64,000 bases of DNA from Octopus vulgaris (taxonomy: Eukaryota), in assembly GCA_951406725.2 (NCBI GenBank), contig OX597826.1, positions 79,360,001 to 79,424,000 of the forward strand, in the 5' to 3' direction. Shown here piece by piece: positions 41-52,035 of the stretch. Each line of letters starts with the position of its first letter. Position 1 is the first letter of the stretch. The notes below the pieces were generated by a model. It was not told the origin of the DNA and searched no databases. It was given only the letters and a program-made list of their open reading frames with translations. The translations under genes were made by a program, and so were the position numbers.

Positions 41-769
41 GTGAGCGAACAAACAGATTCCGTGTTCAAATTTCACCATATGTCATTGTAACAATGTTTT
101 TTCTTCTCTTTTAATCTCATGTGGAGGTTCATCGTATTGCTAATAACCAAAACTAAGATGTAAGATACCATGTCAAGCAACTTTGTGGATCTCTCATGGT
201 CATGGTATCAAGTTTGATTACACCTGGCTGAAGTGGTGTATTGGCCGAGTCACTAGAGTGTTCTGAGTTCAAATCCTGCCCAAGTCAAATTTACCTTTCA
301 TCCTTTTGAGGGTCAATAAAAAATGGTACAAATCCAGTACAGTCAGCTTTCCATGCTAGCATGGGTTGGACAGTGGATTAAGGAAACTGTCTGAGAATTG
401 GGTGAGGTACCTTGTGGAATTTGTTAAGGGTCTTTGTTTTCTGACAGCAACACCTGAAATGACACAAGTGCGAAATGCTATCAGCCTCAGTCAGTGGCAT
501 GAAGTGTGGAGACTTGTCTGCATTGACCAACTGCTGGTCTTCCTAGAAAAAATTTTAATTTTTGCTCAAGTCTGCACATATATGCACAGTCAACATTGAC
601 CAATGGAGGTCCTACATAGTCACCCAGCAAGTGATAGATGCATAACTTATGTCAGTGAGCCTGTTGTGTTTTCTTTATCTCAATTTGGTTCTTATAATTA
701 TCTGCTATCACCTGGATTTGTTTGTTATCAGTTTGTTAGAGTCTCTCTCCAAGTCTAGCCACTTCTTTT

Positions 770-44164: not shown

Positions 44165-44200
<36 letters not shown>

Positions 44201-44286
44201 TGTAGTTGAAATTTATAGAAAAACAAAAAACGAAAACAGATGAGGGGACAAGTGTATTAGTTTGACGCTCGGGAAAATGAAAAAGT

Positions 44287-44322
44287 CTTTTACGATTCGA
44301 GCCTACGCTCTTCATCCGAAAG
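44287..44322 (-). ncRNA. Degenerate PLE-type minimal hammerhead motif
   Basis: CUUU-CGGAUGA-A-GAGC(GUAG)GCUC-GAAU-CG-UA-AAAG; two core substitutions. Confidence 0.5.
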
Positions 44323-44492: not shown

Positions 44493-44571
44493 AGCTCTGA
44501 TGAAGCTATAAGTGGATACACAAGTATTCAGCTTTGAGTGCAGTTCCTTAAGGCAGAAACAGCTGTAAGCT
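44493..44571 (+). ncRNA. PLE-type type I hammerhead ribozyme motif
   Basis: Stem I AGCU/AGCU, CUGAUGA 44497-44503, stem II GCUAUAAG/CUUAAGGC with long loop, GAAA 44556-59, palindromic ACAGCUGU, GUA site. Confidence 0.7.
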
Positions 44572-44615
44572 AATGAAATCGATTATTTAATTCCTGTTCC
44601 CTTGTTGTTTATTTA

Positions 44616-44704
<89 letters not shown>

Positions 44705-47915: not shown

Positions 47916-47950
47916 CATGCGTATATATACCCTTCTCATTTTCTCTATTT

Positions 47951-48006
47951 GTCTCTGATGACGGAGTATCCCATACTCTGGGATATCCCAGAAACAGCTG
48001 TAAGAC
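47951..48006 (+). ncRNA. PLE-type type I hammerhead ribozyme motif (best-preserved copy)
   Basis: Stem I GUCU/AGAC, CUGAUGA 47955-61, stem II GG(A)GUAUCCCA/UGGGAUAUCC, GAAA 47991-94, palindromic stem III ACAGCUGU, GUA site at 48000-48002. Confidence 0.8.
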
Positions 48007-48205
48007 TTTGACATTTTTTCCAATAATAATATTGTATATGACTTGAGATGTTTGTCTTGCCTTAACGTTTATTGTCCTCTTTAACAATTATATACATATA
48101 TATATATATATACATTTCAAATTTACAGAAAAACAAAAGACGAAAGACAGATGTATGAACAACAAGCAGGTGTATTAGTTTGACGCTCGGGAAAAATGTA
48201 AAAGT

Positions 48206-48241
48206 CTTCTACGTTTCGAGCCTACGCTCTTCAACAGAAAG
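48206..48241 (-). ncRNA. PLE-type minimal hammerhead motif (A6 to U)
   Basis: CUUU-CUGUUGA-A-GAGC(GUAG)GCUC-GAAA-CG-UA-GAAG; lies within a ~170-bp repeat shared with 44203-44380. Confidence 0.55.
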
Positions 48242-48384
48242 TATCAAGAGGGGAAAAATAGAGAGTGTAGAGTTCAGCGGTCCTCTGTGTGTGTGTGTGT
48301 GTGTGTTTTGTGTGTGTTTGTCTGTGTGTTTGTATAAAACTGTGAAGTTGTAGAAACGTTTATATACATATACATGCATATATC

Positions 48385-48795: not shown

Positions 48796-48819
48796 ATACG
48801 TACATCAAAAAAGTATAAC

Positions 48820-50030
48820 ATCAGCATGGGATCAAACGATTCCTTTGAAGCTAGTGCCAGTGTTGGACTTTATATATTACCACCTCTGCACACTAAATTC
48901 TATTTTATTTTAAGTGGTTTCTAGACAGATGGCTTACTTCTCAGGTTCTTGACATCAAAGAACAAACAGTATTAGAAAAATTCTACCTTATTTTAAAAAT
49001 AATCTAGGCATGTCTAGTATAGTAGATACACACCTAAAGCTAGTCAATTTTTTTAGGTGTGATCCTAAATTTAAGAGACCCCTATGTATAAAACTCTAAA
49101 ATGTAAATGAAGAATTGAAAAATATACATAAATCATCCAACCATACCTAAAGCTTAAGAAAAATCTTAGGAGTATCTCGTTTAAACTCTCAAACCTATCT
49201 TCCAACGAACATGCATCAATGAAATTTCTACCTCTCTGATGATATAAAGTGAATGTACAACACCACTTTAATTACTAAAAAGAAACTTGGAAAATTAGTT
49301 ATAGAAATATAATTTGGTTTACCTCTCCCTTTAACTTGCAAGTTTGTTGCTCAATAGTTATTCTATTCCTTAAAGTCTTACGAAAACACTTCCCCACTAA
49401 CCATAGGGATTAGAAATTGTTTAATAAGCAGGACTTAAAAAAATATCGGATTCCATAACAAATGAATTCGAACGAACGTGAGGCAGTCTTTGCCAGTAAA
49501 ATTTTAAAGCCAACCAAACAACTAAACAGCCAACTCAAACCACACGAGCTCGTCAAATATAATTTAAAAACCAACTCTTTTTTCTTTGAAAGAAGTCTGT
49601 TATATAGTTCAAGAGTAATACCAGACGTAATCCAATATCTTATGTATGTTTAGCAGCCATCTCTTAGAAAATATTACAACCAGCATACTCACATATTCTG
49701 CTACTTGTAAGAAATGAAATTTTAATGCCTGGCTACGTCTGGCCTTTAAAGTCTACAAACGGGCACCGCAGTATTAAATGGGAAGCACTAACTTTCGCTA
49801 AGTCGTACTTACTGATGAAAACAAACAATAAAAAGAACAAAAAAACTCCCCAAAACATGCCAACATTGGACTTCAGGGTTTTCCAAAATGTTTTTAAACT
49901 GCTCTTGTAAGCATAAAGTTTTATAGTACTAAGCTTTTCTAAGCCCATTGTCGACCTCATTAAGATTACCGGATCCAAACGCTTATTGTCTACCACCTCT
50001 TAATCCCGTAATCTTGTATTTTTGTCATAC
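48820..50030 (+). mobile_element. Highly decayed Penelope-like element (RT and endonuclease remnants)
   Basis: Fragments resembling MGS.DS.E....VGLYIL, (Y)RDDGL, VNFL.V.LNL and YIHKSSNH; many stops. Confidence 0.5.
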
Positions 50031-50669
50031 ATATTAGTCCCCACCCAAGGTCCTCCAATTTTCGTACTTATTATTTATATTTTATACCATTTTATAGTTT
50101 TATTTATTCTTATACTTATATTCATAATGCGTTGATTTTAGCTTACATCCATCTTAGATTATTTATACTTATTATTTTATATTTATCATTTATTTATTAA
50201 CGTACATTTTTATTATGCGCGTATCTATGTCTTCATTGTCAAAGTTTTCCATCATTTTCAGTTTTCGATACGTTTTATATCTTAACTATTTTATTTCCAC
50301 AATTCTTCAGACTTTGTTATTGATTAGATATACTTCAATCATATTTTACTTAATCTATTATTTATTCATTATTTAGCTATATGACATGTATTATTTCTAG
50401 ATTGTGGTATATAAGAATCATTCTTCCATTTCGATTTATCTACATATCGCCTTTACTATTGTTTTACGTTTTCGGGAAATTTTGTTTTCAGTTTATTGTC
50501 AGTATTTATCTTCATCTCTAAGGGCACCAATAATACTAACTTTCAGGCGTTACTCTTTAACCTTTGCATATATAAATATAGTATTTATTTTATTATCGTT
50601 TCAATTTTATTTTATTATTTATCTTATATATACAATATTTTAACATTTATTTTATATAATTTTACATTC

Positions 50670-50712
<43 letters not shown>

Positions 50713-51899: not shown

Positions 51900-52000
51900 A
51901 CAGTTAATCTAAACAAGAAAGCACAAAAAAACAAAACAATGCGACGACGTGGAACAAATCTGGTATTATTGGACGCTCAGGAAAGAAGGAAAGAAGGAGG

Positions 52001-52035
52001 GTTCAACGTTTCGAGCGGAGCTCTTCGTCGGAAAC
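52001..52035 (-). ncRNA. PLE-type minimal hammerhead motif (U4 to C)
   Basis: GUUU-CCGACGA-A-GAGC(UCC)GCUC-GAAA-CG-UU-GAAC. Confidence 0.55.

What the first reader, a model, noticed from the sequence alone, without database searches (positions are those of the whole stretch)
47951..48006. Well-preserved hammerhead ribozyme motif with palindromic stem III
Seen: GUCU-CUGAUGA-C-[10-bp stem II]-CA-GAAA-CAGCUG-UA-AGAC. Both core boxes are intact, stem I closes, and ACAGCUGU is self-complementary. Known: Penelope-like elements carry minimal type I hammerheads with palindromic stem III that can cleave as dimers. The extra nucleotides flanking stem II are atypical of canonical hammerheads. Inference: a solo PLE terminal repeat or non-autonomous retrozyme-like unit that may still self-cleave after 48002.
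Basis: partly seen in the sequence, partly recalled or inferred. Interest (0 to 1): 0.7.

Follow-up and report, generated by a model that had tools for sequence, protein, structure and literature searches.

The report
Hydra-clade Penelope hammerhead, truncated copy
This is a real hammerhead-ribozyme motif in a 172-base leftover end of an abundant, decayed Penelope-like jumping gene; that pairing is already known, and the motif is predicted to cut RNA only as a pair and likely does nothing at this spot.

Summary
The motif is real and not chance. It lies in a 172-nt, 5'-truncated, (TA)n-flanked copy (47923-48094) of a high-copy dispersed repeat. Walking through other copies links it to a decayed RT + GIY-YIG ORF with the Hydra-clade marks of Craig et al. 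2021 (RWK, DKT, CxCX5C, CxxC/CxH, TA-repeat targets). So it is the pLTR hammerhead of a coding Penelope-like element, not a retrozyme.

Stem II folds best with one mismatch (C·A) at its base rather than C plus CA. Extra bases at this position are in the published Hydra hammerhead table. Stems covary across sister families. A dimer is predicted to be more stable than two monomers.

Within the family the core is no better conserved than the flanks. Copy 5' ends do not pile up at the cut site (0 of 30; 1 of 30). One sub-lineage spread with a U4C core. All this fits insertion from uncleaved RNA, as shown for another Penelope element. Cleavage is untested.

The scan noted Hydra-type hammerheads before on other pieces of this genome, but not this family by sequence. 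Ordinary; low interest.

The parts
47923..48094 (+). 5'-truncated pLTR fragment of a Hydra-clade Penelope-like element (79 nt before to 92 nt after the predicted cut)
   Evidence: Homology to dispersed copies starts at 47923 and mostly ends at 48094; other matches 87-93% identical
47951..47954 (+). Stem I, 5' strand (pairs with 48003-48006)
   Evidence: Sequence; pairing covaries across sister families
47955..47961 (+). Core box C3-A9 (CUGAUGA); U4 is C in a sub-lineage of the family
47962..47990 (+). Stem II arm: basal C·A mismatch, 10 pairs with one internal A·C mismatch, 5-nt loop
   Evidence: Predicted fold -13.1 kcal/mol; basal position paired in only 5 of 19 clusters, next pair G-C in 14 of 19
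47977..47992 (+). Second, 16-nt perfect palindrome overlapping the 3' arm of stem II and G12-A13
   Evidence: 4 of 30 copies start exactly here, 3 of them visibly at a fold-back junction
47991..47994 (+). Core box G12-A15.1 (GAAA)
47994..48001 (+). Palindromic stem III (2 bp in the monomer, 8 bp in a dimer)
48002..48002 (+). H17 = A of a GUA triplet; predicted cut after this base
   Evidence: Hammerhead numbering applied; not tested
48003..48006 (+). Stem I, 3' strand
48007..48094 (+). Short 'tail': start of the element's 5' UTR side, ending at an internal TATATA, one of two preferred 3' termini
   Evidence: 3' ends cluster at +85..95 and about +244..267; ATG lies 248 nt after the cut in L140
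47885..47915 (.). (TA)n tract on the left of the insertion
48095..48113 (.). TA-repeat tract on the right of the insertion

Best explanation
The motif is a type I hammerhead sequence in a 172-nt truncated end-piece of a high-copy Penelope-like retrotransposon with Hydra-clade marks; it was likely copied from an uncleaved RNA into a TA repeat, is predicted to cut only as a dimer, and is likely inert at this locus. SHOWN: the repeat is dispersed and high-copy; single loci carry RT, linker, GIY-YIG and this hammerhead in order, and others carry hammerhead, ATG and RT; 3' ends are fixed at two TATATA sites while 5' ends are random; stems covary across sister families. INFERRED: in the parent element the element's endonuclease nicked (TA)n, RT primed at an internal site 92 or about 264 nt past the hammerhead on an unprocessed tandem transcript and fell off early. 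In the parent's RNA the two pLTR hammerheads would pair through the 8-nt palindrome and cut slowly after GUA, probably helped by the element's protein, trimming unit-length RNA as a side step not needed for insertion.
For: Copy number: 2333 first-look candidates, 40 scored; 665 exact pattern matches vs 0 control. Linkage: L098 has RT-postRT-linker-EN-hammerhead on one strand plus an inverted 5' hammerhead; L140 has hammerhead-N-terminus-RT. Hydra marks RWK, DKT, CxCX5C and CxxC/CxH read in translations against PMC8557442 section 11. Atlas leads: HTH_animal/RVT_1 clusters at 0.93-0.95 and GIY-YIG at 0.90. Covariation: 160 of 209 cells paired vs 110.6 +/- 5.5 shuffled, 0 of 5000. Double hammerhead -39.9 vs two monomer MFEs -32.6 kcal/mol. 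5' ends at the cut site: 0 of 30 and 1 of 30. Core identity 0.865 vs flank 0.862 in 33 copies found as neighbours. PMC11167929 passages: an Anolis PLE hammerhead cuts only with protein, and unprocessed RNA is the main insertion substrate.
Against: No cleavage assay. Pfam found no RT or GIY-YIG family in 5 ORF pieces. Clade assignment rests on motifs and by-eye comparison with the paper's alignment; no tree was built. The double-hammerhead fold is not the cofold minimum (-39.9 vs -45.3). Core identity is slightly above flank identity in the two query-biased sets (0.968 vs 0.941; 0.922 vs 0.905). The 19 clusters in the covariation test are related and some are single decayed copies, so the shuffle count is not a probability. 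Dead copies decay neutrally whatever the parent did, so this decay says nothing against activity in the parent.
Confidence: 0.87

Rival explanations
1. The copy is still an active ribozyme at this locus, cutting a host read-through or intronic transcript, as a monomer or by pairing with transcripts of other copies.
For: All core positions, stem I and the palindrome are intact. Thousands of family copies could supply partners in trans. A window motif at 44497 shares the same palindrome and strand.
Against: Monomer hammerhead p about 2e-4 for the motif and 2e-16 in the whole copy. With the 44497 motif only stem III pairs; stem I strands are not complementary. An intact core is common among copies this close to the majority (19 of 28).
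Confidence: 0.08
2. The unit is a non-autonomous retrozyme that spreads as short tandem repeats through circular RNA.
For: Short size. The abstract of 10.64898/2026.07.22.740005 derives animal retrozymes from PLE pLTRs. One locus has two same-strand motifs 380 nt apart (L316).
Against: No tandem array at this locus. 58 of 76 loci solo and 17 inverted. 5' ends are random and run continuously into a coding region.
Confidence: 0.04
3. Chance resemblance to a hammerhead.
For: Rfam finds no hammerhead.
Against: 0 of 200 shuffles; 665 vs 0 genome matches; cross-family covariation; same layout in File S2 of PMC8557442.
Confidence: 0.01

Closest known systems
Hydra-clade C-terminal EN+ Penelope-like elements and their hammerheads (Craig et al. 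2021, PMC8557442; sections 11-12, passages, Files S1 and S2, parts of S4 and Fig. S7 text read)
   Same: RT then GIY-YIG; RWK, DKT, CxCX5C, CxxC/CxH; (TA)n targets; 3' hammerhead with an extra base after CUGANGA and before GAA in many rows (often a U·U mismatch); stem III acag/ctgt as in Penelope-1_NV, Penelope-1_SK, Penelope-2_SK and Hydra-1_aMil; GUA triplet.
   Different: Not the listed Hydra-1_Obim, whose hammerhead sequence differs. Stem III is a loopless 8-nt palindrome. Stem II has 10 pairs against 3-7 in the listed Hydra rows. The linker has a long Thr/Asn-rich insert. A U4C sub-lineage exists. The string gaaacagctg was absent from the supplement.
Minimal/variant hammerheads of metazoan PLEs (Cervera and de la Pena 2014, PMC4209133; parts 1-2 of 4 read)
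   Same: Short helix I (4 bp), long helix II, an extra base after A9, palindromic helix III, mostly single dispersed motifs from truncated PLEs, some inverted pairs; low activity reported, only as dimers.
   Different: That paper's consensus has G10.1-C11.1 directly before G12; here an A lies between the basal G-C pair and G12.
PAc (Poseidon, Anolis) pLTR hammerhead and 'tail' (Frangieh et al. 2024, PMC11167929; part 1 of 4 and passages read)
   Same: Two preferred 3' termini downstream of the hammerhead; copies span the cut site.
   Different: In PAc the ORF starts inside the hammerhead and RT starts at sites not homologous to the target; here the ATG is about 250 nt downstream and the termini are TATATA sites that match the (TA)n target.
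Metazoan non-LTR retrozymes (Cervera and de la Pena 2020, PMC7229834; passages read)
   Same: Type I hammerhead working best as a dimer; the axolotl HHR_Amex2 has a 2-bp helix III with tetraloop and a U·U mismatch under helix II.
   Different: Retrozymes are non-coding tandem repeats of 150-450 bp expressed as circles; this family is coding-linked, dispersed and randomly 5'-truncated.

Membership tests
Penelope-like elements (EN+) | Single ORF with RT and C-terminal GIY-YIG endonuclease linked to the repeat | tested here: met
   L098, L097, L109, L143 maps; YRDD and NFLD motifs; Atlas leads. Pfam negative; all copies read are broken.
Penelope-like elements (EN+) | pLTR on both sides; tandem or inverted arrangements; 5' truncation | tested here: met
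   Hammerhead upstream of the ATG in L140 and downstream of EN in L098, L102; direct pair in L103; 17 of 76 inverted pairs
Hydra clade | RWK motif in the N-terminal region | tested here: met
   RRMRWK in L140, L143, L161
Hydra clade | DKG modified to DKT | tested here: met
   SDKTG in L109, L135, L140, L161
Hydra clade | Linker CxCX5C; CxxC and CxH around conserved E and N; no CCHH | tested here: met
   CNCRSGRDC in L069; CGLCSKE..N..CKH in L068. Absence of CCHH judged by eye only.
Hydra clade | Insertion into (TA)n | tested here: met
   Window copy and most 3' junctions
Hydra clade | RT phylogeny groups with Hydra | not tested
   No reference proteins were available as tool sequences; by-eye match to the alignment only
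Type I hammerhead ribozyme | Conserved core C3 U4 G5 A6 G8 A9 G12 A13 A14 A15.1 U16.1 H17 | tested here: met
Type I hammerhead ribozyme | Base pair 10.1-11.1 directly flanking the core | tested here: not met
   C·A mismatch; mismatch in 14 of 19 clusters. Natural U·U at this position is reported in PMC3088659 and PMC7229834.
Type I hammerhead ribozyme | Three stems supported by covariation | tested here: met
   Stems I and II across families; stem III was fixed by the search pattern, so it was not tested
Type I hammerhead ribozyme | Loop I - loop II tertiary contact | not tested
   No analysis run
Type I hammerhead ribozyme | Site-specific self-cleavage | not testable with these tools
   Needs a bench assay; only contigs were available
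Non-LTR retrozyme | Head-to-tail tandem units of 150-450 bp, each with a hammerhead | tested here: not met
   (1 of 76 loci with a same-strand pair)
Non-LTR retrozyme | Non-coding unit | tested here: not met
   Family runs into an RT-EN ORF
Non-LTR retrozyme | Expressed as circular RNA | not testable with these tools
   No run on record as RNA

The most novel reading that the evidence does not exclude
This family is a natural experiment showing that a Penelope hammerhead is a deliberately braked, dispensable passenger: a sub-lineage with a U4C core amplified about as well as its U4 sister, copies almost never begin at the cut site, and the 10.1·11.1 mismatch is kept across sister families as a brake that only dimerisation or the element's own protein releases.
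Probability: 0.25. Interest if true: 0.45.

Novelty: new member of a known kind. Interest (0 to 1): 0.2.

Why it matters
Modest. It adds one more Hydra-clade family and shows that Rfam misses these hammerheads. The role of PLE hammerheads is stated as unclear in PMC8557442. The U4 / U4C sister lineages and the lack of copies starting at the cut site give genomic support, in a second clade, to the in vitro result of PMC11167929 that cleavage is not needed for insertion, and they offer a ready matched pair to assay.

Tried and rejected
Rfam: nothing at gathering score; only microsatellite-driven hits at E<=10.

Pfam on 5 stop-free ORF pieces: no relevant family.

Expression: no RNA holder listed (kinds are guesses). 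At 90% likeness, contigs of family copies bridge the cut site with 4-10 differences. At 98%, flanks have depth about 2-3 in three runs, and only 32-40-nt family-shared pieces lie on the motif in one run. One contig ends at 48002, but contig ends cannot show RNA ends. None of this is used as evidence.

Link to the RT remnant at about 48817-49440: rejected, because it is only 48% and 38% identical to this family's protein, no N-terminal piece lies between, and two other repeats intervene.

Heterodimer with the 44497 motif: only stem III pairs.

Competing folds through the 16-nt palindrome: crashed, and the energies include a mis-registered helper hairpin and are not used; the cofold minimum does not use this palindrome.

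Whether the window's U4 arose from C by CpG decay: unresolved. The copy carries four alleles of the lineage that holds U4C and two of the other.

Lunse et al. 2017 on dimeric PLE hammerheads is not held (recalled only).

Literature searches for octopus or cephalopod + Penelope + hammerhead gave PMC8557442 as the only relevant-looking listing; PMC6962438 was seen as a listing only. Supplementary figures of PMC4209133, which I did not open, may list closer hammerheads.

Full report
OBSERVATION. The 56 bases at 47951-48006 are as described: a 4-bp stem I, CUGAUGA, a long stem II, GAAA, the palindrome ACAGCUGU and a GUA triplet with the predicted cut after 48002. The pattern occurs once in the window and in none of 100 shuffles. 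A full type I descriptor hits two places in the window (this one and 44497) and none in 200 shuffles. Rfam does not see it. One correction: stem II folds best with 10 pairs, an internal A·C mismatch and a single C opposite a single A at its base (-13.1 kcal/mol), not with C and CA flanks (-11.6).

WHAT IT SITS IN. A search of the own genome (2.8 Gb) gave 2333 first-look candidates; 40 were scored and nearly all other matches are 87-93% identical. The window copy shares homology only from 47923 to 48094, with TA repeats on both sides. It differs from the majority of the 112 other copies at 7 of 172 positions. An exact core+stem III pattern has 665 matches against 0 for the control, and 329 more have another base before GAAA (control 1); these include several sister families. 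The repeat content, the likeness to Hydra-1_Obim and earlier AI notes suggest an octopus; this is inference.

THE PARENT ELEMENT. Four walking searches upstream (scripts 20, 23, 30, 47) led into a decayed ORF. Single loci show the order directly. L098 has RT, post-RT, linker, endonuclease and, about 830 nt later, this hammerhead, with an inverted hammerhead at its 5' side. L140 has the hammerhead, an ATG 248 nt after the cut, the N-terminus and RT. The translations contain RRMRWK, SDKTG, YRDD, CNCRSGRDC (CxCX5C) and CxxC..E..N..CxH, the marks that PMC8557442 section 11 gives for the Hydra clade along with (TA)n targeting. By eye they follow the Hydra rows of that paper's alignment. Pfam gave no support. 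The Atlas gave leads to HTH_animal/RVT_1 clusters (Pfam share 11-26% of members) and GIY-YIG (25%). No tree was built. Of 150 RT matches scored from 11108 candidates, those at least 65% identical have open frames of at most 324 aa, while more distant families (about 50%) reach 806 aa. So this family looks dead in the sample seen.

THE 'ATYPICAL' BASES. File S2 of PMC8557442 lists many Hydra hammerheads with an extra base on each side of stem II, often U·U, and several with acag/ctgt stem III. PMC4209133 reports an extra base after A9, long helix II, short helix I and palindromic helix III for PLE hammerheads. Among 61 motifs from pattern-derived loci and the window, grouped into 19 clusters, the basal position is paired in 5 of 19, the next pair is G-C in 14 of 19, and the following pair includes G-C 5, C-G 5 and U-A 4. 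Overall 160 of 209 cells pair against 110.6 +/- 5.5 in shuffles (0 of 5000). The stems were not part of the search pattern. The clusters are related and some are single decayed copies, so this is strong support but not a p-value.

HOW IT WOULD WORK. As a monomer the hammerhead fold is 4.3 kcal/mol above the minimum (p 1.8e-4). The double hammerhead with an 8-bp intermolecular stem III scores -39.9, better than two monomer minima (-32.6) but above the cofold minimum (-45.3), which forms stem III but not stem I. Published dimer-type PLE hammerheads cut weakly, and only as dimers or only with protein.

Genomic copies argue that insertion used uncut RNA. With anchors downstream of the cut, 0 of 30 and 1 of 30 copies begin at the cut site (two loci are in both sets, and the single case is an inversion junction). 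5' ends scatter from -561 to +39, while 3' ends cluster at about +92 and +244 to +267, at internal TATATA followed by (TA)n. The window copy is a +92 case. This recalls the two RT start sites and 'tail' of PAc (PMC11167929), though here the sites match the target repeat. The priming model is inference.

NO SIGN OF SELECTION ON COPIES. In 33 copies found as neighbours (three are near-duplicates of one region), core identity equals flank identity (0.865 vs 0.862) and 3 of 33 cores are intact. In the query-biased sets the core is slightly higher (0.968 vs 0.941, 19 of 28 intact; 0.922 vs 0.905, 11 of 29). That is expected of dead copies and says nothing about the parent.

A U4C SUB-LINEAGE. The family splits into two linked haplotype groups. 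In the first 100 of 147 matches of a pattern blind to position 4 (counted by hand), C4 occurs in 22 of 49 copies with loop-T and 0 of 37 with loop-G (Fisher p 4e-7); the 14 copies with other loop bases were left out, 4 of them with C4. So a master with CCGAUGA likely amplified. PMC3088659 states that U4C considerably lowers activity in vitro yet permits viroid infectivity. The window copy is loop-T with U4; part of such copies may be CpG reversions, which I could not resolve for this one.

NOT A RETROZYME. Of 90 pattern-derived loci (not deduplicated), 76 held a motif: 58 solo, 17 inverted pairs, 1 with a same-strand pair. No same-family partner lies in the window or 10 kb on either side. Expression data were uninformative.

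EARLIER NOTES. I reached the Hydra reading before consulting them. A sequence look-up found no note on this family. Word look-ups found several unreviewed notes on Hydra-type hammerheads elsewhere in this genome, including one with a C4 core; they agree but are not independent evidence.

VERDICT. Real motif, known kind of element, new family; probably inert at this locus. Interest 0.2.

Noticed in passing
window 44493-44572 (+): Second hammerhead of the same layout (same ACAGCUGU stem III, palindromic stem I AGCU, much longer stem II) from a sister family, followed by a (TA)n tract at 44621.
   Followed up: partly
window 48120-48241 (-), 44200-44320 (-), about 51940-52035 (-): Three ends of another Penelope-like repeat with a minimal hammerhead-like motif (short stem II, GAAACG); cores read CUGUUGA at 48237 and CCGACGA at 52031. 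The 48205-48245 piece has very high contig depth in the runs laid.
   Followed up: no
window about 48817-50660 (+): Heavily decayed remnant of a more distant Hydra-like ORF (38-48% to this family's RT pieces), with an AT-rich tail ending at the (TA)n tract at 50672; no hammerhead core was recognised in it.
   Followed up: partly
window 47977-47992; L285, L291, L296, L297: A 16-nt perfect palindrome inside the motif coincides with the 5' end of 4 of 30 copies, three with a visible fold-back; possibly a template-switch hotspot.
   Followed up: partly
G000, one search list (e.g. C5:50457260, C18:62343253, C4:75254701): Many related RT copies at about 49-54% identity with open frames of 500-800 aa and identical scores, suggesting a young Hydra family.
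   Followed up: no
L069 2410-3165 (-), L106 1245-2087 (-): The linker between RT and endonuclease carries a long Thr/Asn-rich, microsatellite-like insert not seen in the Hydra rows of the published alignment that I read.
   Followed up: no
searches lists: Sister families share the stem III palindrome but vary stem II from about 20 to over 50 nt.
   Followed up: partly
L069, L070, L071 (C1:157.2-157.5 Mb): Three copies 93-98% identical including flanks, likely a segmental duplication.
   Followed up: no
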